Below, piece by piece: positions 2,674 through 61,820 of a stretch of 64,000 bases of DNA. The notes beneath the pieces were generated by a model, which had not been told where the DNA came from, made no database searches, and worked only from the letters and a program-made list of their open reading frames with translations. Source of the DNA: the human T2T-CHM13v2.0 reference genome, Homo sapiens; assembly GCA_009914755.4 (NCBI GenBank), contig CP068257.2, positions 44,256,001-44,320,000 of the forward strand. The letters run 5' to 3'. Positions within the stretch are counted from its first letter, which is position 1, and each line of letters opens with the position of its first letter. Position numbers and translations under genes: made by a program.

Positions 2674-3200
2674 CTGCTGGTACCAAGGGCAGAGGACGTG
2701 GTGAGGTGTGGAGGAGGCCTCATTGCCGCTGGTACCAAGGGCAGAGGACATGGTGAGGTGTGGAGGAGGCCTCGTTGCCGCGGGTGCCAAGGGCAGAGGA
2801 TGTGGTGAGGTGTGGAGGCCTCATTGCTGCGGGTGCCAAGGGCAGAGGACGTGGTGAGGTGTGGAGGAGGCCTCATTGCCGCGGGTGCCAAGGGCAGAGG
2901 ACGTGGTGAGGTGTGGAGGCCTCATTGCCGCGGGTGCCAAGGGCAGAGGATGTGGTGAGGTGTGGAGGCCTCATTGCTGCGGGTGCCAAGGGCAGAGGAT
3001 GTGGTGAGGTGTGGAGGAGGCCTCATTGCCGCGGGTGCCAAGGGCAGAGGACGTGGTAAGGTGTGGAGGAGGCCTCATTGCCTCTGGTACCAAGGGCAGA
3101 GGACGTGGTGAGGTGTGGAGGAGGCCTCATTGCCGCTGGTACCAAGGGCAGAGGACGTGGTGAGGTGTGGAGGAGGCCTCATTGCCGCTGGGCAAGGGTG
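2674..3200. repeat. Minisatellite, ~49-52-bp unit, ~10 copies (ctggtaccaagggcagaggacgtggtgaggtgtggaggaggcctcattgccg)
   Basis: Direct tandem copies are visible. Copies differ by cgt/atg/atgt and by the presence of gaggagg. Confidence 0.85.
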
Positions 3201-5495: not shown

Positions 5496-6810
5496 CTTGT
5501 ATGTTAGCTTCCTAAATACACCTTTATGGGCTCAATACCACTTTGCCATAAGCAAGTAAGTAAAGAAAGGAATCTTTCGTTCTGGCCCGTGCACTGTTGC
5601 ATGACTGGAGCTGTGTTGATGCCCTCATCCTGGGTCTGTTTCGTCTGTGGAGACAAAGAGCGATGTGTGTGGGAGTGGGGGTTCAGGCAGGAGCGCTCAC
5701 AGGGGCTTCAGAGACGGTGGAGTGGAGAGAGGAGCTGTTAAATGTAAGTGCCCCGAGCTGCCGTCAGCAGCTGCATGCGGGCCAGCAGCCTCTGATTTGC
5801 CTTCCTCCGACTGCAAAAGTCGTTAAATCACATCAAGCCTGGGGCCTGCTTAGAAGCTGTCAGGACCGTCTTCTCTACTGTTCCCCTGATGCCTCCATTG
5901 TGAAGACCCAGCCCAGCTCTGAATGCAGGGACAGCACCTGTGCTTCCTGGCAGATGCAGCTCAGAGCAGGAAACCTGGTCTCCACCTTGGGCAGACAGCA
6001 ACGGTGCAGGCAGTGTGGTTGCCTGGCACCCCTTCCTCCCCTCCTCATGGCCAGGGCCACGGCCAGCCTCCTCCTCCCTTCTTCTGCAGCCCGCCCTTGG
6101 GAAAGGATGCTGTGGAGTTAGAGGCGGGGAGCTTCAGGCCTGGCTGCGTCTTTCCCTAGCTTGGGGACCTTTGAACAATTCCCGAGTCTCCCTGCCATGG
6201 CTCTTGTGGCAGTACATTGCGGTGGCTACAGATGTTTGTTGCCGTGAGTGCTGCTCAGCCCTCACGTGCTTGTCCATCTGCCTGTGGCACTGGCATCCAG
6301 GGAACAGCTTTCAAGTACATGGAGATTTCACCTGCAGCTTCTGATCCCCCCAGATTCTCTCCAGTGTGACTTTAAGGAAAAGATACTTATGAAAACCAAA
6401 GGGAGCTTTTAGAAGTCAGCGTAGCTCCGAGACGGAGGCCTGTTTCTGCTCTGTCTTGGAGCTGACAGTGGCTCCAGCCAATGACCCCATTCCTCCAGTA
6501 GCCCTCAGTAAGGAGTGCTGTGTCCCTGACCTCAGTACTTGGCCCACGCCAGGGGCTGGGACTGCATCTGTCACTGCCAGGGTGGGAGACGTGGCCTCGC
6601 AGCTGTCTAAGGGGCAGTTTCCAGCAGCTACTCTGCTGCGGGAGAGAATGGAGCAGACAGGTCATGAGGCCAGCATGAGAGCATGGGGAGGGGTTCTGCC
6701 TGGCCACACCCTGCAACTAGACAACACTGCACGCCCGCTGGGCAGCACAGAAAAGGCTGAACAGACCAGCTGTTGGCGGGGCCGTGGAGGAGCTGCAGCT
6801 CTGTGCGCAG

Positions 6811-7635
6811 CTGAGGGAAATGTGGATAACAGAACCTGGAACTCGGTGCACTTAGGGGGATGTGGATAATACAACCTGAAACCCTGCGCTGCTGAGGGGA
6901 ATGTAGATAATAGAACCTGGAACTCTGTGCACTGCTCAGGGGAATGTGGATAATAGAACCTGGAACTCTGCACAGCTGAGGGGAATGTAGATAATAGAAC
7001 CTGGAACTCTGCACTGCTGAGGGGAATGTAGATAACAGAACCTGGAACTCCGCATTGCTGAGGGGAATGTAGATAATAGAACCTGGAACTCTGTGCACTG
7101 CTGAGGGGAATATAGATAATAGAACCTAGAACTCTGCATTGCTGAGGGGAATATAGATAATAGAACCTGGAACTCTGTGCACTGCTGAGGGGAAGGTAGA
7201 TAATAGAACCTGGAACTCTGTGCATTACTGATGGGAATGTAGATAATAGAACCTGGAACTCTGTGCGCTGCTGAGAGGAATGTAGATAATAGAACCTGGA
7301 ACTCTGCACTGCTGCAGGGAATGTAGATAATAGAACTTGGAACTCTGTGCACTGCTGAGGGGAATGTAGATAATAGAACCTGGAACTCTGTGCACTCCTG
7401 AGGGGAATGTAGATAATAGAACCTGGAACTCTGCACTGCTGAGGGGAATGGAGATAATAGAACCTGGAACTCTGTGCATTGCTGAGGGGAATGTAGATAA
7501 TAGAACCAGGAACTCTGCATTGCTGAGGGGAATGTAGATAATAGAACCTGGAACTTTGTTCACTGCTGAAGGGAATGTAGATAATAGAACCTGGAACTCT
7601 GTGCACTGCTGAGGGGAATGTAGATAGTGGAACCG
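6811..7635. repeat. Minisatellite, ~43-bp unit, ~19 copies (gaggggaatgtagataatagaacctggaactctgtgcactgct)
   Basis: Tandem copies are visible. They explain the minus-strand ORFs 6628-7674. Confidence 0.9.
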
Positions 7636-12773: not shown

Positions 12774-12928
12774 GTGACGCCTTCTGGGCCCCATCTGTCC
12801 TTCCTCACAGCACCCTCAGCACCTTAAGCCACCACCCTCAGCCACAATTTGGCAGAAGGATGGAGTCCAAGGTCTCAGAAGGTGGCCTGAATGTGACCCT
12901 CACCATCCGCCTGCTGATGCATGGAAAG
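12774..12928 (+). CDS. PCBP3: PCBP3 coding exon (first in window). It begins at acceptor ctctctccag|GT and contains the internal ATG at 12860 (MESKVSEGGLNVTLTIRLLMHGK). The upstream part, G-DAFWAPSVLPHSTLSTLSHHPQPQFGRR, is coding only in the long isoform.
   Basis: Polypyrimidine tract plus AG at 12772-73. An in-frame stop (TAG 12746-48) lies just upstream, so the ORF cannot extend further 5' without splicing. The GT donor at 12929 (aag|gtaagagg) joins in frame to the next exon. The translation matches the KH1 N-terminus of the PCBP family. Confidence 0.85.
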
Positions 12929-12937
12929 GTAAGAGGA

Positions 12938-14130
12938 GCCGCCATTGTCTCTGTAGGAAAGGCGGCCGCGGCAGACAGAACCAGAGATGCACTGCCCGGG
13001 CCATTGGCACTGTAGGAAAGGCAGACATGGCACATAGAACCGGAGATGCACTGCCCGGGCCATTGTCTCTGTAGGAAAGGCAGACATGGCACATAGAACC
13101 GGAGATGCACTGCCCGGGCCATTGTCTCTGTAGGAAAGGCGGCCGCGGCACATAGAACCGGAGATGCACTGCCCGGGCCATTGTCTCTGTAGGAAAGGCA
13201 GACATGGCACATAGAACCGGAGATGCACTGCCCGGGCCATTGGCACTGTAGGAAAGGCGGCCGCGGCACATAGAACCAGAGATGCACTGCCCGGGCCATT
13301 GTCTCTGTAGGAAAGGCAGACATGGCACATAGAACTGGAGACGCACTGCCTGGGCCATTGTCTCTGTAGGAAAGGCAGACATGGCACATAGAACCAGAGA
13401 TGCACTGCCCGGGCCATTGTCTCTGTAGGAAAGGCGGCCGCGGCACATAGAACTGGAGACGCACTGCCCGGGCCATTGTCTCTGTAGGAAAGGCAGACAT
13501 GGCACATAGAACCGGAGATGCACTGCCCGGGCCATTGTCTCTGTAGGAAAGGCAGACATGGCACATAGAACCGGAGATGCACTGCCCGGGCCATTGTCTC
13601 TGTAGGAAAGGCGGCCGCGGCACATAGAACTGGAGACGCACTGCCCGGGCCATTGTCTCTGTAGGAAAGGCAGACATGGCACATAGAACCGGAGATGCAC
13701 TGCCCGGGCCATTGGCACTGTAGGAAAGGCGGCCGCGGCACATAGAACCAGAGATGCACTGCCCGGGCCATTGTCTCTGTAGGAAAGGCAGACATGGCAC
13801 ATAGAACCGGAGACGCACTGCCTGGGCCATTGTCTCTGTAGGAAAGGCAGACATGGCACATAGAACCAGAGATGCACTGCCCGGGCCATTGTCTCTGTAG
13901 GAAAGGCGGCCGCGGCACATAGAACTGGAGACGCACTGCCCGGGCCATTGTCTCTGTAGGAAAGGCAGACATGGCACATAGAACCGGAGATGCACTGCCT
14001 GGGCCATTGTCTCTGTAGGAAAGGCGGACATGGCACATAGAACCGGAGATGCACTGCCCGGGCCATTGTCTCTGTAGGAAAGGCGGACATGGCACGCAGA
14101 ACCTGACACTGCCTGGGTCATTGGATCATT
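12938..14130. repeat. Minisatellite, 59-bp unit, ~20 copies (gtaggaaaggcagacatggcacatagaaccggagatgcactgcccgggccattgtctct). It begins 10 nt after the exon donor at 12929.
   Basis: Successive gtaggaaagg occurrences fall at 12953, 13012 and 13071. Copies alternate ggcggccgcggc and gcagacatggc variants. Confidence 0.92.
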
Positions 14131-14787
14131 TTTTAATCTTATTTTAAGCAATCTCAAACTTACAAGGCAGTTATAGGTACAGCCCCTTTGAGACAGTGCC
14201 AACCTGATATCTTCTGCGTGTTTCCTACAAACAGGGACCTTCTCCAGCACAACCACACACAGCCATCAGTGTCAGGGCACCCACACGGATGCGTTCCCAC
14301 CACTGGCCTCCCTTCACAGCGGCCGCAAAGCATCCCCTGGTCCCCTGTCTCAAGTCCCTTCCACCTGGAGTAGGTCGTCGGCTTTGACTGTGCAGTCGGC
14401 ACTTTCTGCACAGCGTGTGTGGAGCACCCATGCCTTGGTCTAGGTCTCCTGGCCGTTGGCAGGAACGTGGCAGCAGCTCTGTCCCGGGGTGTGCCTGTCA
14501 GCCGCTCCCAGGAACCTGTCCTCAGACTTTCAGAGCATGTGTTTCTATCCTCTGGGAGTCAGGTTGCTATGTTGTTCCCCGGCTTTTCCTTCCATGACCA
14601 CGTGATTTGCTCCGATGCCCTCGCTGCCCCTGCTTTGGCCAGAACCCCAAGGCCCGACGAGTCCCTGTTCCTATAGCCCCATCCTGCTCTTTGCTCATCT
14701 TGTCTTCCTTGTCCCAGTCCTGGAACCAGCCACTGCCCCAGCAGCTCCTGTGTGTGGTGGCATGTTCTGGAAGCCAGGATGCATGGT

Positions 14788-14850
14788 GCTCCTGGGCTGC
14801 TGTGGGTCCTGGGCTGCTGTGGGTCCCGAGCTGCTGTGGGTCCTGGGCTG
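14788..14850. repeat. 18-bp tandem repeat, ~3.5 copies (ctgggctgctgtgggtcc)
   Basis: Direct tandem copies. Confidence 0.8.
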
Positions 14851-15295
14851 CACCCCTGCAGAACACTTCCTTCCATGTTCAGCTCCCTATATGGAACCCC
14901 AGTTCCAGCCCCACAGCACAGGGTCCCCCAGTTCTTCCTGCCTCAGGTGTGCACCACGAGGAATCCAACTGCCAGTATCTGTGCGTGGCCTCCCGCCGGG
15001 AGGAGGCTGGCGGAGGCTCTGAGCTCTAGCCCCACAGCACTGGCACATCCTAGATTTCCGGGAAGACACGGCCTCCTCCCCAGGGGAAGGTGGTGGTGCC
15101 CACACCCAGAGCATTCATTCCTGCAGTGGAGACAGAGGGACCTGCCTCTCCAACTGTGGGTGGCAGGAGCCAAGGCGCATGGTAAATGGGGCTCTCTGTG
15201 AGGCCAGGTGCACGGCCCCATCTCCAGCAGCAGCGGCCATGCCACCCAGCTGCACTCTGTGGGGGAGGTGCCATGATTGACGGGGGCCCCTCCCT

Positions 15296-15960
15296 GTGTC
15301 CAGTGTCCTCCTCCCTCCACGGGCCCCTCTGCACACCGTCCTCACAGCCTCCCTCTACACACCGTCCTCACAGCCTCCCTCTGCACACCGTCCTCACAGC
15401 CTCCCTCTACACACCGTCCTCACAGCCTCCCTCTGCACACCGTCCTCACGGCCTCCCTCTGCACACCGTCCTCACAGCCTCCCTCTGCACACCGTCCTCA
15501 CAGCCTCCCTCTGCACACCATCCTCATGGTCTCCCTCTCCTTCCACAGACCCCTCTGCTCGCCATCCTGACGGCCTCCCTCTCCCTCCACGGACCCCTCT
15601 ACACACTGTCCTCCCAGCCTCCCTCTACACGCCATCCTCACAGCCTCCCTCTCCCTCCACGGGCCCCTCTACACACCGTCCTCACGGCCTCCCTCTCCCT
15701 CCACGGGCCCCTCTGCACGCCGTCCTCACGGCCTCCCTCTCTCTCCACGGGCCCCTCTGCACGCCGTCCTCACGGCCTCCCTCTCTCTCCACGGGCCCCT
15801 CTGCACGCCGTCCTCACAGCCTTCCTCTTTTTCCACAGACCCCTCTGCACACCGTCCTCACGGCCTCCCTCTCCCTCCACGGGCCCCTCTGCACGCCGTC
15901 CTCACGGCCTCCCTCTCCCTCCACGGGCCCCTCTGCATGCCGTCCTCACAGCCTCACCGA
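15296..15960. repeat. Minisatellite with a 30-bp unit (cacaccgtcctcacagcctccctctg), grading into a 60-bp unit (ccctctccctccacgggcccctctgcacgccgtcctcacggcctc); ~15 units
   Basis: Tandem copies are visible. They give a spurious 334-aa Pro/Ser-rich + strand ORF. Confidence 0.88.
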
Positions 15961-16574
15961 CGTCACCATTGCTGGCCCCGCTTCAGGTGACAGGCCACAG
16001 TAGCACCTGTCAGCTCTGTCCCGCTGCTGGACAGGGAGATACTGGGCCACTCAGCCCAGCGGGGAACGTGTGTCCCGAAACTGCCTTGGGCTCGCCATCA
16101 GAACTGTGGCAGCATCTTCCAGCGTTCCTTTTAACAGGCTGCCGTTGGAATAGGAGTCACGGAGCAATTGCAGTGCTAAGTTTTCTTTAAGTCACACAAT
16201 TGAAGGAGGCTTTATTTTTCACACATTTCTTCCAGAGTTTCCTGGTAGCCTGAGTGCATGGGTGATGCCCCCTGAGTTATTTATCAGGGGCAGCCAGCTG
16301 CCCTCCCCCGGGGCACTTACAGTCAGCCCATCTCTGTCCTGGTCAGGTGGGCGCCAAGGAAGACCCGGCTCAGGGCCTCTGTATGGGCAGCCTGGCTTGT
16401 ACACACACCCCTCCCCACCAGCAGATTCTGAATTCTCCCTTCTTCATGCACACCGGGAAGGTCCCTTCTGCACTCATACCGGGAAGGTAGGCAGGTTTCG
16501 GTAGTGTCTGCCTCCAGTGTTTTCCTCCTCCTGCTCTATGACATCATCTTTCTGTGATTTTTTTTTTCTTGCAG

Positions 16575-16598
16575 GAAGTTGGAAGCATCATCGGGAAG
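16575..16598 (+). CDS. PCBP3: PCBP3 micro-exon EVGSIIGK (KH1 GXXG loop region)
   Basis: Acceptor tttttttcttgcag| and donor |gtaattat. The 24 nt keep the frame, and IIGKKG is the KH GXXG motif when joined to the next exon. Confidence 0.9.
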
Positions 16599-17566: not shown

Positions 17567-17599
17567 AAAGGAGAAACTGTGAAGAAGATGCGTGAGGAG
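17567..17599 (+). CDS. PCBP3: PCBP3 exon KGETVKKMREE
   Basis: Acceptor ctttattccag| and donor gag|gtgagtgt. The exon stays in frame. Confidence 0.9.
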
Positions 17600-26311: not shown

Positions 26312-26482
<171 letters not shown>

Positions 26483-26635
26483 TAGGCGGGCTGCGGGTGG
26501 TGGCCACAGGCCAGGCAGCCTTCCTGAGCCTTGTCCCTGCTGTCTGCAAGCCCAATGCTGGCCACGCAGACCCCACAGCTCAAAGTGCGAGACAGGAACA
26601 CAGGACCCATGAGCAAGCACAACTGCACTGCAGGG

Positions 26636-27995
26636 ACCCAGCCCACCCACTGCCCAGATACGGACCCGGCCACCCACTGCCCAGATACAGACCTGGCCCA
26701 CCCACTGCCCAGATACGGACCCCCCCCACCCACTGCCCAGATACGGACCCCCCCCCCACCCACTGCCCAGATACGGACCCCCCCCACCCACTGCCCAGAT
26801 ACGGACCCCCCCCCACCCACTGCCCAGATACGGACCCGGCCCACCCACTGCCCAGATACGGACCCCCCCCACCCACTGCCCAGATACGGACCCCCCCCCC
26901 GCCCACTGCCCAGATACGGACCCCCCCCGCCCACTGCCCAGATACGGACCCGGCCCACCCACTGCCCAGATACGGACCTGGCCACCCACTGCCCAGATAC
27001 GGACCCGGCCACCCACTGCCCAGATACAGACCCGGCCCACCCACTGCCCAGATATGGACCCCCCCAACCCACTTCCCAGATACGGACCCCCCCACACACA
27101 CTTCCCAGATACGGACCCCCCCACACACACTTCCCAGATACGGACCCCCCTCACCTGCTTCCCAAATATGGACCTGGCCCACCCACTGCCCAGATATGGA
27201 CCCCCCCCACCACTGCCCAGATACGGACCCCCCCCCACCCACTGCCCAGATACGGACCCCCCCCCGCCCACTGCCCAGATACGGACCCCCCGCCACCCAC
27301 TGCCCAGATATGGACCCCCCCCCGCCCACTGCCCAGATACGGACCCCCCGCCACCCACTGCCCAGATACGGACCCGGCCCACCCACTGCCCAGATACGGA
27401 CCCCCCCCCCACCCACTGCCCAGATACGGACCCGGCCCACCCACTGCCCAGATATGGACCCCCCCCCGCCCACTGCCCAGATACGGACCCCCCCCCCACC
27501 CACTGCCCAGATACGGACCCGGCCCACCCACTGCCCAGATATGGACCCCCCCAACCCACTTCCCAGATACGGACCCCCCCACACACACTTCCCAGATACG
27601 GACCCCCCCACACACACTTCCCAGATACGGACCCCCCTCACCTGCTTCCCAAATATGGACCTGGCCCACCCACTGCCCAGATATGGACCCCCCCCACCAC
27701 TGCCCAGATACGGACCCCCCCCACCACTGCCCAGATATGGACCTGGCCCACCCACTGCCCAGATACGGACCCCCCCCCACCCACTTCCCAGATATGGACC
27801 TGGCCACCCACTGCCCAGATACGGACCCCCCGCCACCCACTGCCCAGATATGGACCCGGCCCACCCACTGCCCAGATACGGACCCCCCCCCCACCCACTG
27901 CCCAGATACGGACCCCCCACCCACTGCCCAAATATGGGCCCTTTCCACCCACTGCTCACCTATGGATCCTGCCCACCCACTACACTCCTATGGGC
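26636..27995. repeat. C-rich minisatellite, ~28-34-bp unit, ~45 copies (cccactgcccagatacggacccggccacc). It carries variable poly-C runs of 6-12 and starts ~190 nt after the exon donor at 26444.
   Basis: Tandem copies are visible. They explain the overlapping 459-573-aa ORFs on both strands, which show PLPRYGP and GPYLGSG pseudo-peptide periodicity. Confidence 0.92.
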
Positions 27996-31653: not shown

Positions 31654-31728
31654 TCCCCACCGAAAGGTGCCACCATTCCCTACCGCCCAAAGCCCGCCTC
31701 CACCCCTGTCATTTTTGCAGGTGGTCAG
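31654..31728 (+). CDS. PCBP3: PCBP3 exon SPPKGATIPYRPKPASTPVIFAGGQ (KH2-KH3 linker)
   Basis: Acceptor cccttttcctag| and donor tcag|gtaagagc. Confidence 0.9.
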
Positions 31729-34700
31729 GTAAGAGCCGATCCGCTCGCGGCCTCCACTGCCAACCTCAGCCTTTTACTGCAGCACCCGCCGCTGCCCGTT
31801 AGTGCACTCAGGTTTTCTCGCCTTCTCACGTGCACGTCTCCCACCCGTGCTGGAGGCAGAGCTCTTCCACCTACACCCAGCACCAGGCGGACGCAGGGGG
31901 CCTTCAGAGCGGCATTCCCCCACAGAGACGGCCCCACGGAATCATGTTCTCCCTCCCTGACCCGGGCAGGAAGATCTGGCTCTGCCTAAATCCAGTTCCC
32001 AGAACTGGGTGTTTTTAGGAAGCTTAGATAGCCGGCGCGCAGGCGCTTTCTAGGTGATTTTACGACTCACGTTGGAAACAGCACGATGAGAACCAGGGTC
32101 TTGTTTCCACTGACATCCGTGTTCCCAAACTCCCAGGATGTGCTTGTAGCAGGGACGTGCGAGAGGAGGGAGCTCTGCACTGAGGAAGGATGCATGGCCC
32201 GATGACCGGGCGTCTGTGCCGCTGTGTCCGGACCTCCGTCTGCTGTGAGCAGGGGCCTCACAGGCGCCCCATACCCCATACCCAGTCTGCAGATCTGGCT
32301 CTTTTGGTTTCAGCCCTTGAGCTCTGTGTTCTCCCGCCAGGGATGGCAGCACCTCTGCAGGAGAGTGGAGGAGGGGAGCCCTGCCCCAGCCCCTCACCTG
32401 AGCCCAAACCCTGGCCAGGGCACAGGGAACACCCACCCACTCAGGGCCAGTCTGTGGCCAACAGACTTTGAAGGTGTCCGGCGGGGGTTGGCCTGGAAGA
32501 GCTCTGTGTCCAGTCGGCCGTGATGTGTGTCTTTGTTCAAGGGAGAGTTGAGACAGACGTTCCCACAGGTGACCCTGGCAGGGCAGAACAGGCCTGAGGT
32601 TTGACTTTACCATCAAAAAGGAGAGAAGGGGCAAATGTTAGCACTTTTCCTGGTGCTTTTCCTTACGGTGTAAAGGAATCTTATCAGATCTCCCAGTTGT
32701 GGCCCGTGTTTGAGGGAGAGACAGGGAGTGTGTGTCCATCCCTTCCCTCCCAGGGTCCCGTGTGCTCAGGGCAGGGTATGCCTTTTCCCCACACTGGCCT
32801 CGTCTCCACAGCCTGGCACACACCCCTTCCTGTCTTGCTGTGGTCAGGGAGCCCCCACATGCACATGCCATCCTTACAGCAGCCCCAGGGCATGGCACAC
32901 CCCCATTTTATAGCCAGGAAACTGGGCCTGGCTAGCCAGGGATTTGCCTGGTGTCACAGCCCTGTGGGCAGCAGGACATGTCCTTACCTCGCCGACCTAG
33001 GGGGCTCAGGTCACAGGGTCACACGGAGTCACACGGCGGGAGAAGTCCCTGTGCAAAACTCCATTTCGCTGCTTTCCCCAAATTCATGGTTAGGTAACCG
33101 GTTTAGTAACCTCTGTGGACTCCACCTTGATGTTTAAACAAATCCATGATGATATCATGTGGTAAAAGGTAGGATTTTTTTCAAAAGGAAGGTGTGTTTA
33201 TACAAACACATGTGGGGTCTTAAAGCCACTGGGGGAGGAGTCACAGCTCCAGGGAAGAGGGGGTGCAGCTGAGCCCTGCTCAGCCACCGGCCACACACCT
33301 CTCACTCCTGTAAAGAAGGCAGTAGCACGCCCTCCCTACTGCAGCAGGTGAAGGGCCCTGTGCAGTGGGTGCTGTCCGAAGGTTGATGCTAGAATGTCAG
33401 CCCTTTGAGAGCTGGGCCCTGGGGCCCTGGGGACAGTCTGGTCTGGCCAGTGGTCAGCCTTGGTGGTGGAGGACAGAGTCGCAGGGAGTTACCCACCCTG
33501 AAGTAACCCAGGGGAGCTGCCGAAATGCAAACCCAGAAGTGTGGGCCGGATACCTGCAAGGCCACTGGCGTCTCCTTGACGACTCAGACCCACAGTGCCT
33601 AGATTAGGACACACAACCCAATACAGACCCTAGAGAGCTAACCTGGAGGGCCCATCCACTTTATTTCTGTCCAGTTGGAGAAATCAGGGACCTGGAAGAT
33701 GCCCCACCACTGTGAGTGCTCTGGGGGCACCCAGCAGCAGCTCCTGTCAGCCACCACCGCGTTTCTAGCACGACATGGTCGTGAGTTAAATCAGCAGAGC
33801 CTGCTAAGGGACGAGCAGATAGAAAACATAACAGTAAGAAGATCAGTCAGAAAACTCGCGTGGCCCAGGATGCAGGATGCTTGAGCTCTTGTGGTTCAGC
33901 TCAGACAGTTGGGGCTGACCTGGGACCCCGTGCGCTGAGGGGGCGGCTCCCAGCATGAGTTCCAGGGCCCCTCACCTTCGGTGACACATGGGAACGTGCC
34001 TCTGGCAGCACCTTTACAAAACACTTGCAGGTGGCCCTCAAGACACTTTGTACAGGACAGTGAGGTCCTTGGTTCCTGCTCTATCTGATAAGATTCTTTT
34101 ACTTCCTCAGCTGACGCAGCACTGTGGCCTCACAGCCCTGGGGCTTGTTTCAAAGCTGGGCTGCAGCCGGGTCCCTGTCTGGAGGTTGACTGGCCTTTAA
34201 CTCCGAGGATTGGGTTGTTTATGATGAAAACTCTTGGCAGATTCAAAACCCATGGGAGGGTTTGGGCTGCACAGAGGTGACACACATCCTTCCCTGAAGT
34301 GTCCCTCTCTGGTGCACAGGGTCCCCCCACCCCCACGTGTGGTCACCGCGAACACCGATACCACGGGTCCTCATGGGAAGTGGCGTGGGGCCCGCACAGC
34401 CAGGGGCTGGTAGCCGCTCCCTCCACCCCCAGGCTGCCACCAGGCCTGGTGCAGCCCTGTCCATGTCCCGAGTCCTGACAGCTGTTCGTGGTCTTCACTC
34501 TCCCTTGACTCTGTGTGGTCCATTTGTTGTCTGGCCATGAGTTTCTGAATCACCTGAAAGCGTCTCCACTGACGGGACCTGTGGGGCAGGTGGGGCCTCT
34601 CTCACCTGCCCGGATTTCAGAGTCAGGGTGGGTGGGAAGAGGCTGCAGGTCGGAGTCACTGTTTTGAAGGCGAGGGAAATACTGAAGCCAAAATGAGGCC

Positions 34701-35981: not shown

Positions 35982-36605
35982 TCTAGGTGTAATTCCAGTG
36001 CTGGAGGAAGAAGTTACCCTCAGATAAACGGTCGGTGTAATTCCAGTGCTGGGGGAAGAAGTTACCCTCAGATAAACCGTCGGTGTAATTCCAGTGCTGG
36101 GGGAAGAAGTTACCCTCAGATAAACCGTCGGTGTAATTCCAGTGCTGGGGGAAGAAGTTACCCTCAGATAAACCGTCGGTGTAATTCCAGTGCTGGGGGA
36201 AGAAGTTACTCTCAGATAAACCGTCGGTGTAATTCCAGTGCTGGAGGAAGAAGTTACTCTCAGATAAACGGTCGGTGTAATTCCAGTGCTGGGGGAAGAA
36301 GTTACCCTCAGATAAACCATTGGTGTAATTCCAGTGCTGGAGGAAGAAGATACTCTCAGATAAACCGTCGGTGTAATTCCAGTGCTGGAGGAAGAAGTTA
36401 CCCTCAGATAAACCATTGGTGTAATTCCAGTGCTGGGGGAAGAAGTTACCCTCAGATAAACCGTCGGTGTAATTCCAGTGCTGGAGGAAGAAGTTACCCT
36501 CAGATAAACCACTGGTGTAATTCCAGTGCTGGAGGAAGAAGTTACTCTCAGATAAACCGTCGGTGTAATTCCAGTGCTGGAGGAAGAAGATACTCTCAGA
36601 TCATC
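35982..36605. repeat. Minisatellite, 48-bp unit, ~13 copies (gtcggtgtaattccagtgctgggggaagaagttaccctcagataaacc)
   Basis: Tandem copies are visible. The 48 = 3x16 bp unit is stop-free, giving 246/250-aa pseudo-ORFs on both strands. Confidence 0.92.
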
Positions 36606-40212: not shown

Positions 40213-41411
40213 ACCCTCATATATACAAATCTTTATTTCTAGTCTTCCAGGTCTCCTAATCACTCCCTTACTTAACGTCCCCATCATTTAAAGGGGATGT
40301 TGAAAGCAAGCAAAAATAAAAACATGTTAGAGTTGACGAAGAGTTTGCCATGTAGGCGATTTTAGATGAGCCTTTGCACCAACCCTGTGAGGCAGATCTC
40401 AGGACCGTGGGGCCAGTTCCACACACGAGGAAGTGGAAGCTCTGAGAGGTGCCTTGGCCAGAGCTAATGAGCCAGGGAATGGGAGGGCTTGGCACAGCCG
40501 CCCAGGCAGCTGGACGTGAGTGGCAGATGTGCAGCAACGCTGGGAATCAAGCGGACACCAGTGTCTACTAAGAAGCTGGTTCTTCAGTGAAAGAGTCGTG
40601 GGGAAATTGTAGAAATGTGTCGTAAGTGGGAGCCAGGGATGGGAGGCACGACCAGATCCTGTGCTGGATGCGGCCCTTCATCCCAGCTGTGCAATCCCCG
40701 GGACTCTGTCGGTGCCACGCATTTCCCCTGGACACATGAAGGGCACGCGTGGGCTCTTGTGACAATCTCATGCACTTGCAGAGATTTGGGCAGATTGTTG
40801 CAGAGTGCTTTCTCCTCCCACTTGTTCTGTGTCTCCCTCTGGAACCCTGTGGGGAGGTGGGTGAGGGGTCCCCTCACTGTAGTGAGAGAGTAGTCAATGC
40901 CGCATGCTCTGGGCACATGCCGAGGGGCCCAGCCTCTCTCACTCTGAAGCCTGGCACCTTCCAAGACCTTGCAGCTGCAAGTGGTGCAGCGGCTTGCCCA
41001 TGGCCCCACCTGCTGTCAGAGCTGTGCTACTGCAGCCACTCCTTTCATGAAACAAGAGGCCCAGGCAACCCTCACTGCTGGCTGGAGTTCCATCTTTCCT
41101 TGCTTGGAACACCGCACCCTCTGCAGGGCCCCAGTGGCACGGCTCTCACATGCTGTTCCTCCCAGCTTGCCCTTCTCAGAACGAGACTTTGCATCTTTAC
41201 AGGACCCTCGGGCGACTCACTGGCCCGTGGAGGTCTAAGAAACACTAGTCAGGAGGCCTGAGAAGGAAGAACATGCATCCAGTTGGAAGCCCAGGGGAGA
41301 CATGGAATGGAGAGAGAAAATTCCAAGAGACACACAGAGAACCTTCCAAAATTAGAGAAACCATCAACAATTCCCAAACAGGATAAACAAATAATACAAA
41401 TAAACTCGACC

Positions 41412-44400
41412 TGGAACAGTCGAGTGGATAGAAACAGCACACGTAAGATCGGGTGTGCACGAGGAGATGTGAACACTGGGAACAGTCGCGTGGATAGAAA
41501 CAGCACACGTAAGATCGGGTGTGCGTGAGGAGATGCGAACACCGGGAACAGTCGAGTGGGTAGAAACAGCACACGTAAGATCGGGTGTGCACGAGGAGAT
41601 GTGAACACCGGGAACAGTCGAGTGGATAGAAACAGCACACGTAAGATCGGGTGTGCACGAGGAGATGTGAACACTGGGAACAGTCGCATGGATAGAAACA
41701 GCACACGTAAGATCGGGTGTGCGTGAGGAGATGTGAACACTGGGAACAGTCGAGTGGGTAGAAACAGCACACGTAAGATCGGGTGTGCACGAGGAGATGC
41801 GAACACCGGGAACAGTCGAGTGGGTAGAAACAGCACACGTAAGATCGGGTGTGCACGAGGAGATGTGAACACTGGGAACAGTCGCGTGGATAGAAACAGC
41901 ACACGTAAGATTGGGTGTGCACGAGGAGATGTGAACACTGGGAACAGTCGCATGGATAGAAACAGCACACGTAAGATCGGGTGTGCGTGAGGAGATGCGA
42001 ACACCGGGAACAGTCGAGTGGGTAGAAACAGCACACGTAAGATCGGGTGTGCACGAGGAGATGTGAACACTGGGAACAGTCGCGTGGATAGAAACAGCAC
42101 ACGTAAGATCGGGTGTGCACGAGGAGATGTGAACACTGGGAACAGTCGCATGGATAGAAACAGCACACGTAAGATCGGGTGTGCACGAGGAGATGTGAAC
42201 ACTGGGAACAGTCGCATGGATAGAAACAGCACACGTAAGATCGGGTGTGAGTGAGGAGATGCGAACACCGGGAACAGTCGAGTGGGTAGAAACAGCACAC
42301 GTAAGATCGGGTGTGCACGAGGAGATGTGAACACTGGGAACAGTCGCGTGGATAGAAACAGCACACGTAAGATCGGGTGTGCGTGAGGAGATGCGAACAC
42401 CGGGAACAGTCGAGTGGGTAGAAACAGCACACGTAAGATCGGGTGTGCACGAGGAGATGTGAACACCGGGAACAGTCGCGTGGATAGAAACAGCACACGT
42501 AAGATCGGGTGTGCACGAGGAGATGTGAACACTGGGAACAGTCGCGTGGATAGAAACAGCACACGTAAGATCGGGTGTGCGTGAGGAGATGCGAACACCG
42601 GGAACAGTCGAGTGGGTAGAAACAGCACACGTAAGATCGGGTGTGCACGAGGAGATGTGAACACCGGGAACAGTCGCGTGGATAGAAACAGCACACGTAA
42701 GATCGGGTGTGCACGAGGAGATGTGAACACTGGGAACAGTCGCGTGGATAGAAACAGCACACGTAAGATCGGGTGTGCGTGAGGAGATGCGAACACCGGG
42801 AACAGTCGAGTGGGTAGAAACAGCACACGTAAGATCGGGTGTGCGTGAGGAGATGCGAACACCGGGAACAGTCGAGTGGGTAGAAACAGCACACGTAAGA
42901 TCGGGTGTGCACGAGGAGATGTGAACACTGGGAACAGTCGCGTGGGTAGAAACAGCACACGTAAGATCGGGTGTGCGTGAGGAGATGCGAACACCGGGAA
43001 CAGTCGCGTGGGTAGAAACAGCACACGTAAGATCGGGTGTGCACGAGGAGATGCGAACACTGGGAACAGTCGCGTGGATAGAAACAGCACACGTAAGATC
43101 GGGTGTGCACGAGGAGATGCGAACACCGGGAACAGTCGCGTGGATAGAAACAGCACACGTAAGATCGGGTGTGCACGAGGAGATGCGAACACCGGGAACA
43201 GTCGCGTGGATAGAAACAGCACACGTAAGATCGGGTGTGCACGAGGAGATGTGAACACCGGGAACAGTCGCGTGGATAGAAACAGCACACGTAAGATCGG
43301 GTGTGCACGAGGAGATGTGAACACCGGGAACAGTCGCGTGGATAGAAACAGCACACGTAAGATCGGGTGTGCACGAGGAGATGCGAACACCGGGAACAGT
43401 CGCGTGGATAGAAACAGCACACGTAAGATCGGGTGTGCACGAGGAGATGCGAACACCGGGAACAGTCGCGTGGATAGAAACAGCACACGTAAGATCGGGT
43501 GTGCGTGAGGAGATGCGAACACCGGGAACAGTCGCGTGGATAGAAACAGCACACGTAAGATCGGGTGTGCGTGAGGAGATGCGAACACCGGGAACAGTCG
43601 AGTGGGTAGAAACAGCACACGTAAGATCGGGTGTGCACGAGGAGATGTGAACACTGGGAACAGTCGCGTGGATAGAAACAGCACACGTAAGATCGGGTGT
43701 GCGTGAGGAGATGCGAACACCGGGAACAGTCGAGTGGGTAGAAACAGCACACGTAAGATCGGGTGTGCACGAGGAGATGTGAACACCGGGAACAGTCGCG
43801 TGGATAGAAACAGCACACGTAAGATCGGGTGTGCGTGAGGAGATGTGAACACCGGGAACAGTCGCGTGGATAGAAACAGCACACGTAAGATCGGGTGTGC
43901 ACGAGGAGATGTGAACACCGGGAACAGTCGCGTGGATAGAAACAGCACACGTAAGATCGGGTGTGCGTGAGGAGATGCGAACACCGGGAACAGTCGAGTG
44001 GGTAGAAACAGCACACGTAAGATCGGGTGTGCACGAGGAGATGCGAACACCGGGAACAGTCGCGTGGATAGAAACAGCACACGTAAGATCGGGTGTGCGT
44101 GAGGAGATGCGAACACCGGGAACAGTCGTGTGGGTAGAAACAGCACACGTAAGATCGGGTGTGCACGAGGAGATGCGAACACCGGGAACAGTCGCGTGGA
44201 TAGAAACAGCACACGTAAGATCGGGTGTGCACGAGGAGATGTGAACACCGGGAACAGTCGCGTGGATAGAAACAGCACACGTAAGATCGGGTGTGCGTGA
44301 GGAGATGCGAACACCGGGAACAGTCGAGTGGGTAGAAACAGCACACGTAAGATCGGGTGTGCACGAGGAGATGCGAACACCGGGAACAGTCGCGTGGATA

Positions 44401-44975
44401 GAAACAGCACACGTAAGATCGGGTGTGCGTGAGGAGATGCGAACACCGGGAACAGTCGTGTGGGTAGAAACAGCACACGTAAGATCGGGTGTGCACGAGG
44501 AGATGTGAACACCGGGAACAGTCGAGTGGGTAGAAACAGCACACGTAAGATCGGGTGTGCACGAGGAGATGCGAACACTGGGAACAGTCGCGTGGATAGA
44601 AACAGCACACGTAAGATCGGGTGTGCACGAGGAGATGTGAACACTGGGAACAGTCGCGTGGATAGAAACAGCACACGTAAGATCGGGTGTGCACGAGGAG
44701 ATGTGAACACTGGGAACAGTCGCGTGGATAGAAACAGCACACGTAAGATCGGGTGTGCACGAGGAGATGCGAACACCGGGAACAGTCGAGTGGGTAGAAA
44801 CAGCACACGTAAGATCGGGTGTGCGTGAGGAGATGCAAACACTGGGAACAGTCGAGTGGATAGAAACAGCACACGTAAGGTCGGGTGTGCACGAGGAGAT
44901 GCGAACACCAGGAACAGTCGAGTGGGTAGAAACAGCACACGTAAGGTCGGGTGTGCGTGAGGAGATGCGAACACC
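41412..44975. repeat. Large minisatellite (VNTR), 66-bp unit, ~54 copies, 3.6 kb. It is CpG-dense (~7 CpG per unit).
   Basis: The unit is gggaacagtcgcgtggatagaaacagcacacgtaagatcgggtgtgcacgaggagatgcgaacacc. The 66 = 3x22 bp unit has no stop in any minus frame, which produces the spurious 1224-1241-aa ORFs. Confidence 0.95.
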
Positions 44976-47003: not shown

Positions 47004-47508
47004 CCCCTGCCCATCCTCCTACCCTCCTCTCCCTCCCTCTCCCCCTCCTCCCTCCCCTCCCCTTCCTCCCTCTCCCCCTACATCCTCCCCTCCTGCCCTC
47101 CTCTCCTTCACTCTGCCTCCTCCCTCCCCTCCTCTCCTCTCCCTCCCTCTCCCCCTCCTCCCTCCTCTCTCCTCTCCCTCCCTCCCTCTCCCCCTACTTC
47201 CTCCCCTCCTGCCCTCCTCTCCCTCCCCTCCTGTCCCTCCCTCCCCTCCTGTCCCTCCCTCCCCTCCTGTCCCTCCCTCCCCTCCTGCCTTCCTCTTCCT
47301 CCCTCTCCCTCCCTCTCCCCCTCCTCCCTCCTCTCCTCTCTCCCCTCCCTCCCTCTCCCCCTCCTCCCTCCTCTCCTCTCCCCTCCCTCACTCTCCCCCT
47401 CCTCCCTCCTCTCCTCTCTCCCCTCCCTCACTCTCCCCCTCCTCCCTCCCCTCCTCTCCCTCCCTCCCTCTCGCCTGCCTACCTGACTTTCTTCCTCTTT
47501 CCTCTCAG
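47004..47508. repeat. Polypyrimidine (CT/CCCT-rich) low-complexity tract, ~500 bp
   Basis: The tract runs cctcctaccctcctctccctccctctccccctcctccctcccctcc.... It is homopyrimidine on the + strand and is the source of the P/S-rich and E/R/G-rich pseudo-ORFs. Confidence 0.9.
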
Positions 47509-50958: not shown

Positions 50959-51736
50959 GTAACACAAAGCCACACTGACAGGAGAACAGGCCAGAGCAGC
51001 AGAGCAGAGCCCCAGTGGGAGGAGGTGTGGGGGCCCTGCCGCTGCAGCAGTTTCCAGCTTCCATGGGAGGCTGTGGGCCAGCCTCAGGTGCTGCCAAGGG
51101 CGTGGGTGGTGCCATGCTGCCACTGTGGCTGGATGGTGGGGCCTGAGGTGCTCAGAGCAGGGCACCCCGGCCATGGGAGGCGGCCGTGGGAGCAGGAAAT
51201 AGAGGTCTCACCATGGTGTGCTTTGGAAATGGGTTTTGTAGGACTACAAGCAAACCCTTAAGGAGGAAGATCAGTCTGTGCTGGATTTGCCTGCACCCCT
51301 CCCGACTTGCATTAAAATGTTCATTCCTCAGATACTGTGGGGTAGCACATAGATTTGTAGATTCAGTGACCAAGGCCATGAAACAGACACAGTTGTTTGC
51401 CTGGGGCTTAGCAGGTTCCTAGGTGCCCGTGAAGAAGATGCCACACACGCACCACACCTTGTGGCTCCATGTGCACATGGCCGGTGCCACAGTGGCTTCC
51501 TGGTGGCCAGGCAGGTGTCCTGTAATGACCCTCCCCTCACCAAGGCCCTGAGGACTGCAGTGCACACACATGCCAGCCACAGCAGGGTTAAATTGGGTGG
51601 GCAGCGATGGGAGGTGTTTGTGGCCTCTTTGAATGCTGCGGCCAGGAGACTTCCAGCGTGGGCTTGGACTGCAGGTTGGGGCAGCCTCCTTTACCCCTGG
51701 TACCTGGAATGTCGTCATCTTCATAAGAAACAGACT

Positions 51737-53460
51737 CACCTGGGCCGTGCTGTCCTGAGATGAGTGAACACGTCGGCCATGCCGTCCTGAGATGAACAAA
51801 CACGTCGGCCATGCTGTCCTGAGATGAACAAACACGTCGGCCGTGCCGTCCTGAAATGAATGAACACATCAGCCATGCTGTCCTGAAATGAATGAACACA
51901 TCGGCCATGCTGTCCTGAGATGAATGAACACCTGGGCCATGCCGTCCTGAAATGAATGAACACGTCGGCCATGCCGTCCTGAGATGAATGAACACATCGG
52001 CCATGCTGTCCTGAGATGAACAAACACCCGGGCCATGCTGTCCTGAGATGAACGAACACCCGGGCCATGCTGTCCTGAGATGAACGAACACCTGGGCCAT
52101 GCTGTCCCGAGATGAATGAACATGTCGGCCGTGCCATCCTGAGATGAATGAACACAACGGTCATGCTGTCCTGAGATGAATGAACACCTGGGCCATGCCA
52201 TCCTGAAATGAATGAACACATTGGCCATGCTGTCCTGAGGTGGATGAACACCTAGTCCATGCCATCCTGAGATGAATGAACACATCAGCCATGCCGTCCC
52301 GAGATGAATGAACACATCGGCCATGCTGTCCTGAGATGAACGAACACCTGGGCCTTGCCGTCCTGAGATGGATGGACACCTGGTCCATGCCGTCATGAGA
52401 TGAATAAACACATCAGCCAAGCTATCCTGAGATGAATGAACACATCAGCCATGCTGTCCTGAGATGAGTGAACACCTGGTCCATGCCATCCTGAGATGAA
52501 TGAACACATCGGCCATGCCGTCCTGAGATGAATGAACACATCGGCCATGCTGTCCTGAGATGAACAAACACCTGGGCCATGCTGTCCTGAGATGAACGAA
52601 CACCTGGGCCATGCCGTCCTGAGATGAACGAACACGTCGGCCATGCCGTCCTGAGATGAACGAACACCCGGGCCATGCTGTCCTGAGATGAACGAACACC
52701 TGGGCCATGCTGTCCCGAGATGAATGAACACGTCGGCCGTGCCGTCCTGAGATGAATGAACACAACAGTCATGCTGTCCTGAGATGAATGAACACCTGGG
52801 CCATGCCATCCTGAAATGAATGAACACATTGGCCATGCTGTCCTGAGGTGGATGAACACCTGGTCCATGCCATCCTGAGATGAATGAACACATCAGCCAT
52901 GCCGTCCCGAGATGAATGAACACATCGGCCATGCTGTCCTGAGATGAACGAACACCTGGGCCTTGCCGTCCTGAGATGGATGGACATCTGGTCCATGCCG
53001 TCATGAGATGAATAAACACATCAGCCAAGCTATCCTGAGATGAATGAACACATCAGCCATGCTGTCCTGAGATGAGTGAACACCTGGGCCATGCCGTTCT
53101 GAGATGAATGAACACATCGGCCATGCTGTCTTGAGATGAATGAACACATCAGCCATGCCGTTCTGAGATGAATGAACACATCGGCCACGCCGTCTTGAGA
53201 TGAATGAACACATCAGCCATGCCATCCTGAGATGAATGAACACATTGGCCATGCTGTCTTGAGATGAATGAACACCTGGGCCATGCTGTCTTGAGATGAA
53301 TGAACACCTGGGCCATGCTGTCCTGAGACGAATGAACACCTGGGCCATGCTGTCTTGAGATGAATGAACACATCAGCCATGCTCTCCTGAGAGGGATGAA
53401 CACCTGGGCCTTGCCGTCCTGAGATGAATGAACACATTGACCATGCTGTCCTGAGATGAT
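51737..53460. repeat. Minisatellite (VNTR), 32-bp unit, ~54 copies, 1.7 kb (gccatgctgtcctgagatgaatgaacacatcg)
   Basis: Successive unit starts at 51781 and 51813 give a 32-nt period. The stop-free unit yields minus-strand pseudo-ORFs with 32-aa periodicity (MADVFIHLRTAWP.CSFISG.HGPGVHSSQDS). Confidence 0.95.
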
Positions 53461-61783: not shown

Positions 61784-61820
61784 GCTGACGTCCGAGGTCA
61801 CCGGGATGGGCACGCTGTAA
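61784..61820 (+). CDS. PCBP3: PCBP3 terminal coding exon (R)LTSEVTGMGTL with TAA stop at 61818-61820
   Basis: Acceptor ctgttccag|. The exon is in frame with the previous one and ends in a stop codon. Confidence 0.9.

What the first reader, a model, noticed from the sequence alone, without database searches (positions are those of the whole stretch)
12929..14130. A 59-bp x ~20 VNTR begins 10 nt downstream of a 5' splice site
The donor aag|gtaagagg at 12929 is followed almost immediately by the 1.2-kb minisatellite, whose first unit starts at 12938. Each unit contains gtaggaaagg, which resembles the exon/donor sequence atggaaag|gtaag, together with CpG-rich ggcggccgcggc variants. Copy-number polymorphism here would change the sequence context and spacing right next to a constitutive donor. 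The repeated GGAAAGG motifs are also purine-rich elements of the kind that act as splicing enhancers or decoys.
Basis: seen in the sequence. Interest (0 to 1): 0.6.

Follow-up and report, generated by a model that had tools for sequence, protein, structure and literature searches.

The report
Human-expanded intronic minisatellite in PCBP3
A real 59-bp x 20 tandem repeat starts 12 bases after a strong splice donor in the human PCBP3 gene; it grew from a single copy in monkeys to 3-36 copies in apes and humans, and nothing in the sequence suggests that it interferes with splicing.

Summary
A 20-unit array (19 x 59 bp plus one 55-bp unit, 12941-14116) begins at intron position +13, after the donor AAG|GTAAGA of the PCBP3 exon that carries the MESKV start codon. 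The host intron (12929-16574) ends at a 24-nt micro-exon.

Orthologous loci show how the array grew: baboon and mangabey have 1 copy, T2T chimpanzee 3, Sumatran orangutan 7, human 20 and Bornean orangutan 36. All share the same 12-nt spacer, first unit and last unit. Eighteen of 20 human units carry a substitution absent from apes. The array is organised as about 2.5 copies of an 8-unit (472-bp) higher-order repeat. It is therefore a young, fast-evolving VNTR that expanded in the human lineage, like its neighbours in this repeat-dense gene.

The splicing interpretation is not supported:
- The GTAGGA in each unit scores as a background GT, while the true donor is the best of 3,619.
- The shared GGAAAGG is chance-level.
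- The first 71 intron bases stay about 95% identical whatever the copy number.
- There is no G4 potential, no RNA structure and no Rfam match.
- The weak acceptor-like TCTCTGTAG|G is outscored by at least 17 other sites in the same intron.

Human polymorphism and any effect on isoform ratios could not be tested here.

The parts
12774..12928 (+). PCBP3 coding exon (GDAFW...MESKVSEGGLNVTLTIRLLMHGK). The internal ATG at 12860 is the start codon of the shorter isoforms. The exon encodes the first strand of KH domain 1.
   Evidence: tblastn of human PCBP3 isoform X21 (P0061) gives 100% over the exon. Acceptor ctctctccag|G and donor AAG|gtaaga. All best protein hits are poly(rC)-binding protein 3.
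12926..12934 (+). Authentic 5' splice site AAG|GTAAGA (intron +1 = 12929)
   Evidence: Approximate PWM score 11.57, the highest of 3,619 GT dinucleotides on this strand of the window. Identical in human, chimpanzee, both orangutans, baboon and mangabey.
12929..12940 (+). 12-nt unique spacer GTAAGAGGAGCC between the donor and the array
   Evidence: Present in all six primate loci (one substitution in Pongo pygmaeus), whatever the copy number.
12941..14116 (+). Minisatellite of 20 units (19 x 59 nt, then a 55-nt ancestral-type terminal unit at 14062-14116). There are two main unit types: GGCGGCCGCGGC (7 units, each with a NotI site) and GGCAGACATGGC.
   Evidence: TRF; unit table. 12 of 59 columns vary, and 7 of those are CpG transitions.
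12941..13884 (+). Two full copies of an 8-unit (472-bp) higher-order repeat (units 1-8 and 9-16, type pattern NaaNaNaa). Units 17-20 (13885-14116) are a partial third copy.
   Evidence: Mean unit identity is 98.2% at lag 8 against 90.6% at lag 1.
14117..14124 (+). GTCATTGG, a partial extra unit start at the 3' edge. In monkeys the single copy is bracketed by ACCATTGG ... GTCTTTGG.
   Evidence: Its role as a slippage seed is an inference.
12929..16574 (+). Host intron (3646 nt). The 59-bp array fills about 32% of it.
   Evidence: Gene model from exact exon coordinates with a clean 362/339-aa translation. The orthologous intron is 2200-2285 nt in baboon, mangabey and chimpanzee, 2532 in P. abelii and 4185 in P. 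pygmaeus.
15325..15955 (+). Second minisatellite in the same intron, C-rich with 26/44-bp units. It is also present in monkeys (44 bp x 9-10).
   Evidence: TRF on the window and on the orthologous introns.
16575..16598 (+). 24-nt micro-exon (EVGSIIGK) that closes the intron, with a very strong acceptor (t10 tract)
   Evidence: Peptide search and splice context; acceptor PWM 17.8.

Best explanation
The feature is an ordinary but very dynamic intronic minisatellite (VNTR) of the human PCBP3 gene.

Origin and growth: a roughly 55-nt stretch of poorly conserved intron happened to lie at positions +13 to +67 after the donor. In the ape lineage it was duplicated in tandem, and it has since grown and shrunk by multi-unit duplications and deletions (unequal exchange or replication slippage). 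It expanded independently in the human lineage (20 units, from a founder unit carrying a derived C>T change) and in the Bornean orangutan (36 units).

Position: its place next to the donor is a historical accident of where the progenitor lay. The exon, the donor and the 12-nt spacer stay fixed, as expected if changes there are selected against, and growth is internal to the array. The splice-site core and the first ~70 intron bases are therefore the same at any copy number.

Effect: the array most likely has no specific function, and at most a small length-dependent effect on removal of this intron.

What is shown and what is inferred: the anatomy, the gene context, the copy-number series, the conserved edges, and the absence of donor-like, G4 or structured-RNA features are shown. 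The mutational mechanism and neutrality are inferred.
For: - Identity and anatomy.
- Gene model (PCBP3, 13 exons, full CDS).
- Copy-number series at the same site, with identical spacer, first unit and last unit: Papio and Cercocebus 1, Pan T2T 3, Pongo abelii T2T 7, human 20, Pongo pygmaeus T2T 36.
- Lemur, pika and seal have no alignable sequence at that position, so the unit is not conserved.
- 18 of 20 human units carry CACATAG, where all ape units have CACACAG.
- 8-unit higher-order repeat: lag-8 identity 98.2%. This matches the block duplication/deletion mode described for human VNTRs (PMC8327921).
- All seven large arrays of the gene change copy number between primates, and 18.4% of the window is tandem repeat.
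- No donor-like sites in the units, and the exon end is not a degenerate unit.
- The array's pseudo-acceptors are unremarkable, and the 59-nt unit lacks a branch-point consensus.
- G4Hunter maximum 0.60; RNA fold z = +0.83; no Rfam family.
- 210 of the 272 PCBP-family proteins fetched read HGK|EVGSIIGKKGET across this intron. The exceptions are PCBP2-type sequences or annotation artefacts.
Against: - Neutrality is inferred, not measured. No RNA data, no population data and no second human allele were available.
- The human expansion preferentially amplified the more pyrimidine-rich TCTCTGTAG|G unit type (17 of 20 units, against 1-2 units in each ape), so the human pre-mRNA carries 17 weak 3'-splice-site-like elements and 20 UAGG motifs within 1.2 kb of a donor.
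- The downstream exon is a 24-nt micro-exon, a class known to be sensitive to intronic context (general knowledge).
- An array edge 12 nt from a splice site arises by chance in only about 6.6% of random placements.
- The polarity of the change (gain in apes versus loss in monkeys) rests on two closely related monkeys and an unalignable lemur.
- The splice PWMs are approximate textbook matrices, not MaxEnt or SpliceAI.
Confidence: 0.75

Rival explanations
1. Copy-number-dependent splicing modulator. The ~20 reiterated UAGG/GGAAAGG and TCTCTGTAG|G elements bind splicing factors such as hnRNP A1 or U2AF/PTB-type proteins just downstream of the donor. Longer alleles then change the efficiency of the donor, intron retention, or inclusion of the downstream 24-nt micro-exon.
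For: - The array starts at +13 of a constitutive donor, and the intron ends at a micro-exon.
- The human units are enriched for the more acceptor-like TCTCT type: 17 of 20, PWM about the 91st percentile of AG sites.
- Intronic tandem repeats that regulate splicing are an established class: TERT VNTR6-1 (PMC11830802) and the spl-TR catalogue (PMC10078293).
Against: - No donor-like site in the unit, and the GGAAAGG match is chance-level.
- The donor-proximal 71 nt do not change with copy number.
- The same exon junction is annotated in species with 1 to 36 copies.
- At least 17 other AG sites in the intron outscore the array's acceptor-like sites, and the human unit lacks a yTnAy branch point.
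- No G4 potential, which is the TERT mechanism, and no RNA structure.
- In F7, even identical pseudo-donors are silent.
- The unit sequence is not conserved outside catarrhine primates.
Confidence: 0.12
2. DNA-level regulatory VNTR. The CpG-dense units (56 CpGs and 7 NotI sites in human) form a length-variable, methylation-sensitive element close to the first coding exon. It would tune PCBP3 transcription or alternative promoter use (an expression-associated VNTR) rather than splicing.
For: - CpG count rose from 8 (chimpanzee) to 56 (human) at this site. The array has GC 0.58 and CpG o/e 0.56, close to CpG-island criteria.
- 7 of 12 variable columns are CpG transitions, the signature of germline methylation.
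- VNTR length effects on expression are well documented in general (papers listed).
Against: - CpG o/e falls below the usual 0.6 island threshold.
- The CpG-decay pattern implies the array is methylated in the germline, which is not typical of active regulatory CpG islands.
- No chromatin, methylation or expression data are available here.
- Neighbouring arrays show the same dynamics without any need for function.
Confidence: 0.1
3. Assembly or alignment artefact: the array or its copy number is not real.
For: None specific. Short-read assemblies can collapse repeats, which could affect the mangabey locus (GCA_000955945.1).
Against: - The array is clean, in register and free of indels.
- Homologous arrays occur at the same site in three independent T2T ape assemblies.
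- The single-copy state is seen in two separate monkey assemblies, and neither intron contains any N.
Confidence: 0.01

Closest known systems
Human-lineage-expanded intronic VNTRs, e.g. the 66-bp VNTR in PCBP3 'intron 11' (Course et al. 2021, PMC8327921; Sulovari et al. 2019 cited there)
   Same: Same gene and same window (the published array is 41409-44975). Both are expanded in human relative to chimpanzee: 19.7 vs 2.7 copies here, 54 vs 8 there. Both have patterned unit variants and grow by multi-unit blocks.
   Different: This 59-bp array is not the one described in that paper, and no searchable paper names it. It is not uniquely large in human, because the Bornean orangutan has 36 units. 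It abuts a splice donor.
F7 (coagulation factor VII) IVS7 37-bp minisatellite (Borensztajn et al. 2006, PMC1557585)
   Same: A minisatellite at the very start of an intron, directly downstream of a constitutive donor.
   Different: In F7 the first unit spans the exon-intron boundary, so every unit repeats the donor exactly. Here the array starts at +13, the exon end is not a unit (11/59 identity), and the units hold no credible donor. Even in F7 the pseudo-donors stay silent.
TERT intron 6 VNTR6-1, 38-bp unit (Florez-Vargas et al. 2025, PMC11830802)
   Same: An intronic, copy-number-polymorphic minisatellite in a GC-rich subtelomeric gene. It is proposed to tune splicing of neighbouring exons.
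   Different: TERT VNTR6-1 acts through an expandable G-quadruplex. The PCBP3 array has no G4 potential on either strand (G4Hunter -0.44 to 0.60), and no functional data exist for it.
Splicing-associated tandem repeats (spl-TRs; Hamanaka et al. 2023, PMC10078293)
   Same: The general idea that repeat length near splice signals can change splicing, for example by binding RNA-binding proteins or altering spacing.
   Different: That catalogue was built with a short-read STR genotyper and does not cover a 1.2-kb array of 59-bp units. No association is known for this locus.

Membership tests
Minisatellite / VNTR | Head-to-tail tandem units of roughly 10-100 bp in many copies | tested here: met
   59-bp period, 19.7 copies, 90% matches, no indels. 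Register table.
Minisatellite / VNTR | Copy number varies between genomes | tested here: met
   Between species: 1, 1, 3, 7, 20 and 36 units at the orthologous site in six primate assemblies.
Minisatellite / VNTR | Copy number varies between human individuals | not testable with these tools
   Only one human allele (the window) was available. Attempts to obtain another failed.
Human-specific VNTR expansion (sense of Sulovari 2019 / Course 2021) | Longer in human than in non-human primates | tested here: inconclusive
   Human 19.7 copies against chimpanzee 2.7, P. abelii 6.3 and monkeys 1, and 18/20 human units share a derived base. But P. pygmaeus has about 36 units from an independent expansion. 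Gorilla, bonobo and gibbon were not obtained.
F7-IVS7-type donor-spanning VNTR with reiterated pseudo-donors | The first repeat unit spans the exon-intron boundary | tested here: not met
   The array starts at intron +13. The preceding 59 nt match the unit at 11/59 in register, below the random mean of 15.
F7-IVS7-type donor-spanning VNTR with reiterated pseudo-donors | Each unit carries a copy of the 5' splice site | tested here: not met
   Unit GT sites score -3.5 and 1.5-2.9 bits against 11.6 for the true donor. They lie at the 22nd to 80th percentile of all GTs.
G-quadruplex-forming intronic splicing switch (TERT VNTR6-1 type) | The repeat forms an expandable G4 on the transcript or template | tested here: not met
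   G4Hunter mean 0.14, maximum 0.60, minimum -0.44. No 25-nt window reaches |1.5|.
Splicing-associated tandem repeat (spl-TR) | Repeat length statistically associated with a splicing phenotype | not testable with these tools
   No RNA or population data here. The published catalogue does not cover this repeat class and its supplements are not held.
Cryptic exon / recursive splice site array | A usable 3' splice site (branch point, pyrimidine tract, AG) paired with a downstream donor, or an AG|GT juxtaposition | tested here: not met
   TCTCTGTAG|G scores 4.5-5.4, below at least 17 other AGs in the intron and below 12 of the 13 real acceptors. The 59-nt unit has no yTnAy. AG is followed by GAAAGG, not GT. 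There is no donor above 2.9 bits inside the array.
Structured or known non-coding RNA | Match to an RNA family, or folding better than shuffled sequence | tested here: not met
   No Rfam hit at gathering thresholds in the whole window. Fold z-score +0.83.

The most novel reading that the evidence does not exclude
The human-lineage expansion, which amplified the pyrimidine-rich TCTCTGTAG|G / UAGG-bearing unit type from 1-2 to 17-20 copies directly after the donor, may have made splicing of the first coding exons of PCBP3 depend on copy number. The effects could be on donor efficiency, intron retention, or inclusion of the 24-nt micro-exon that forms half of the KH1 GXXG loop. This would give human-specific and individually variable PCBP3 isoform ratios in brain.
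Probability: 0.08. Interest if true: 0.6.

Novelty: new member of a known kind. Interest (0 to 1): 0.28.

Why it matters
As it stands, this is one more fast-evolving subtelomeric VNTR, and it mainly serves to correct the splicing-decoy reading. Its modest value is as a clean natural series: 1, 3, 7, 20 and 36 copies, with fixed edges, 12 nt from a strong donor and upstream of a micro-exon. That makes it a convenient test case for asking whether intron-proximal repeat length alone affects splice-site use. It also adds a second array expanded in the human lineage, beside the published 66-bp one, in PCBP3, a neuronal RNA-binding protein gene. If array length did affect PCBP3 isoforms, it would be a human-variable regulator of a post-transcriptional regulator.

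Tried and rejected
- Decoy-donor idea: rejected by PWM ranking and by the F7 precedent.
- 'The array derives from or spans the exon end': rejected (11/59 in-register identity; the GGAAAGG match has P about 0.12).
- Acceptor-decoy / cryptic-exon idea: considered after noticing TCTCTGTAG|G. Found weak: at least 17 better AGs in the intron, no branch-point consensus in the human unit, and no usable donor in the array.
- G-quadruplex mechanism, as in TERT: rejected.
- Structured RNA or a known RNA family: rejected.
- Coding potential or exonisation of the array: the longest stop-free stretches are 31-47 aa. The only protein carrying array-encoded peptide is a gibbon projection model that replaces the 8-aa micro-exon with 8 aa of read-through, which is an annotation artefact.
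- Dispersed copies of the unit elsewhere in the window: none.
- Short isoforms of gibbon and rat are not indexed.
- Supplementary tables of Course 2021 and Hamanaka 2023 are not held.
- A literal motif search in papers found nothing.

Full report
**Observation.**
TRF reports 12941-14103, period 59, 19.7 copies, 90% matches and no indels. Laid out in register, it is 19 units of 59 nt (12941-14061) plus a terminal 55-nt unit (14062-14116). A 36-nt core of the unit matches 13 times in the window against 0 expected from shuffles, and only inside the array. All 20 units contain GTAGGAAAGG, and 7 contain GGCGGCCGCGGC. The exon upstream ends ...CAT GGA AAG at 12928, and the intron begins GTAAGA at 12929. 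The array therefore begins at intron position +13, after a 12-nt unique spacer (GTAAGAGGAGCC), not 10 nt after the donor.

**Gene context.**
The exon translates to MESKVSEGGLNVTLTIRLLMHGK. A search with the concatenated KH-domain exons of the window returns poly(rC)-binding protein 3 as every top hit. The human isoform X21 (P0061) maps at 100% identity to the window exons.

I rebuilt the whole coding region from 13 exons with canonical GT-AG boundaries. It gives 362 aa, or 339 aa with an alternative donor, and ends at a stop codon at 61818-61820. The exon in question is 12774-12928. It also codes in the longer MGEG... isoforms.

The host intron is 12929-16574 (3646 nt). It ends at a 24-nt micro-exon (EVGSIIGK, 16575-16598), which is followed by a 33-nt micro-exon (17567-17599). 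The 59-bp array fills about a third of this intron, and a second, C-rich array sits at 15325-15955.

The window is extremely repeat-dense: 18.4% lies in arrays of at least 100 bp. The 66-bp x 54 array at 41409-44975 corresponds to the published human-specific PCBP3 'intron 11' VNTR of Course et al. 2021 (PMC8327921). That is a different array from the one in the finding. No paper in the searchable library names the 59-bp array.

**Internal structure.**
- Twelve of the 59 columns vary, and seven of those are CpG transitions.
- Two main unit types alternate: 'N' (GGCGGCCGCGGC, which contains a NotI site) and 'a' (GGCAGACATGGC). They follow the pattern NaaNaNaa NaaNaNaa Nag.
- Mean identity between units is 98.2% at a lag of eight units and 90.6% between neighbours. 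The array is therefore about 2.5 copies of a 472-bp higher-order repeat.
- This indicates recent growth by multi-unit block duplication, the mode Course et al. describe for human VNTRs in general.

**Comparative evidence.**
I fetched orthologous PCBP3 loci through the longest annotated isoforms. In each I located the same exon and micro-exon.

| Species (locus) | Units after the donor | Intron length (nt) |
|---|---|---|
| Baboon (L007) | 1 (55 nt) | 2200 |
| Sooty mangabey (L001) | 1 (55 nt) | 2242 |
| Chimpanzee T2T (L005) | 3 (59, 59, 55) | 2285 |
| Sumatran orangutan T2T (L006) | 7 (59, 59, 55 x 5) | 2532 |
| Human (window) | 20 | 3646 |
| Bornean orangutan T2T (L008) | 36 (49/53/55/59-nt types, about 1.9 kb) | 4185 |

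- In every primate with the sequence, the intron starts with the same donor and 12-nt spacer.
- In all four apes and human, the first unit is the GGCAGACAGAACCAGAG type.
- In all of them the last unit is the 55-nt ...AGAACCTGACACTGCCTGG type, followed by GTC[A/T]TTGGATCATTTTTT.
- The first 71 intron bases are 67-68/71 identical between human and the three apes, despite 3 to 36 copies.
- Eighteen of 20 human units carry CACATAG where every ape unit has CACACAG. The human expansion therefore started from a unit that mutated after the human-chimpanzee split.
- Lemur, pika and grey seal have no alignable counterpart of the unit next to the donor, so the progenitor sequence is young and unconstrained.
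- All seven large arrays of the gene change copy number between these primates. The 59-bp array behaves like its neighbours.

**Tests of the splicing interpretation.**
I scored splice sites with approximate textbook position-weight matrices, calibrated on the 12-13 real PCBP3 sites and on all GT/AG dinucleotides of the window.

1. Donors. The true donor AAG|GTAAGA scores 11.6 bits, the best of 3,619 GTs. The two GTs in each unit score -3.5 and 1.5-2.9 bits, which is the 22nd to 80th percentile.
2. Resemblance to the exon end. The 59 nt before the array match the unit at 11/59 in register, against a random mean of 15. The only shared word, GGAAAGG, is expected by chance in about 12% of shuffles. 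So the array does not span the exon boundary, and the 'resemblance to the donor' is not meaningful.
3. Acceptor-like sites. The human expansion amplified this unit type (17 of 20 units, against 1-2 units in each ape). But at least 17 unrelated AGs in the same intron score higher, and 12 of the 13 real acceptors score higher. The 59-nt unit has no yTnAy branch-point consensus, whereas the ancestral 55-nt type has CTGAC. No donor above 2.9 bits exists inside the array to close a cryptic exon.
4. Other mechanisms. The array has no G-quadruplex potential (G4Hunter -0.44 to 0.60). It folds no better than shuffled sequence (z = +0.83), and nothing in the window matches Rfam.
5. Annotated proteins. 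No credible protein carries array-encoded peptide. The single case, gibbon P0218, swaps the 8-aa micro-exon for 8 aa of read-through, a typical projection artefact also seen in dingo P0057.
6. Chance proximity. Random placement of the gene's ten arrays puts an edge within 12 nt of a splice site in about 6.6% of trials. That is mildly unusual for one gene and unremarkable genome-wide.

**Comparison with known systems.**
- F7 IVS7 is the closest positional precedent. There, a 37-bp minisatellite spans the exon 7 donor, so identical and functional pseudo-donors follow the real one. They still stay silent, because the most upstream site is chosen (PMC1557585). The PCBP3 array fails both defining features of that type, and the F7 result argues that even true decoys would not compete.
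- TERT VNTR6-1 shows that an intronic VNTR can switch splicing, but it works through an expandable G4 (PMC11830802), which is absent here.
- The spl-TR catalogue establishes repeat-length effects on splicing as a class. It used an STR genotyper, and no PCBP3 mention was found in it (its supplements are not held).
- The best-fitting family is the human-lineage-expanded intronic VNTR of Sulovari/Course. One caveat applies: the Bornean orangutan expanded the same site independently and further.

**Most likely explanation (confidence about 0.75).**
This is a neutral or nearly neutral minisatellite. It was born by tandem duplication of a roughly 55-nt intronic segment that happened to start at +13. 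It grew by unequal exchange or slippage in a recombination-active, repeat-rich subtelomeric-type region. The short direct repeat ACCATTGG...GTCTTTGG that brackets the single copy in monkeys is a possible seed for the first duplication, but that is an inference of low weight. The exon, donor and spacer stay fixed, as expected if they are under selection, so the array can only change internally. Copy-number change therefore alters intron length (2.2 to 4.2 kb across species) but not the donor's immediate context.

**Rivals.**
- A copy-number-dependent splicing modulator acting through reiterated UAGG or pseudo-acceptor elements, possibly on the downstream micro-exon (about 0.12).
- A methylation-sensitive DNA-level element: 56 CpGs in human against 8 in chimpanzee, with CpG o/e 0.56 (about 0.10).
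- An assembly artefact (about 0.01).

**Limits.**
Human polymorphism, RNA phenotypes and protein binding could not be tested. Only one human allele was obtainable. The polarity of the single-copy state rests on two related monkeys and an unalignable lemur. The splice scores are approximate PWMs, not MaxEnt or SpliceAI.

**Verdict.**
It is a new member of a known kind, and interest is modest (about 0.28). The main value is the clean 1-3-7-20-36 copy series as a natural test bed.

Noticed in passing
window 41409-44975: The 66-bp x 54 array corresponds to the published human-specific PCBP3 'intron 11' VNTR (Course et al. 2021). Copies: human 54, chimpanzee 8, both orangutans 2, baboon 3, mangabey 4. 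CpG o/e is 1.27, the highest of the window's arrays.
   Followed up: partly
window 51733-51795 (array 51743-53459): The C-terminus DSPGPCCPEMSEHVGHAVLR* of predicted human isoform X21 (XP_054180608.1, P0061) is encoded by an alternative terminal exon. It starts at acceptor aaacag|AC, 10 nt before the 32-bp x 53.7 array, and reads into the array's first two units. So a VNTR in this gene is annotated as exonised.
   Followed up: partly
window 26634-27981; also 15325-15955 and 47018-47472: Strongly C-rich arrays lie on the sense strand of a poly(rC)-binding-protein gene. The 28-bp unit has a C8 run, is present in 47.6 copies, and starts 190 nt after the donor at 26444 (G4Hunter mean -1.32). Copies: human 47.6, chimpanzee 23.6, orangutans about 11. 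These could be PCBP binding sites in the gene's own pre-mRNA. Not tested.
   Followed up: no
window 16575-16598 and 17567-17599: Two micro-exons (24 and 33 nt) split the KH1 GXXG loop (IIGK|KGE). Many automatic annotations mis-model them, either reading through the 12928 donor into the intron (gibbon P0218, dingo P0057) or skipping them (fish and bird models).
   Followed up: partly
window 12941-14116: Seven NotI sites (GCGGCCGC) and 56 CpGs are clustered in 1.2 kb. The chimpanzee orthologue has 1 NotI site and 8 CpGs. Most unit-to-unit differences are CpG transitions, which implies germline methylation.
   Followed up: partly
L008 (Pongo pygmaeus) intron positions 13-1926 vs L006 (Pongo abelii) 13-411: The two orangutan species differ five-fold at this site (36 vs 7 units). 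The Bornean array contains novel 49- and 53-nt unit types that start GTCTTTG, apparently recruited from the 3' flank.
   Followed up: partly
window 31654-31797: Alternative donors at 31728 (CAG|GTAAGA) and 31797 (CCC|GTTAGT, very weak by PWM) add the 23-aa VRADPLAASTANLSLLLQHPPLP insert, giving the 339-aa and 362-aa products.
   Followed up: no
window 2679-3188, 6799-7634, 35986-36601: Other large arrays also vary between primates and are not always largest in human. The 48-bp array has 12.8 copies in human and 61 in chimpanzee. The 43-bp array has 19.9 in human and 54 in P. abelii.
   Followed up: partly
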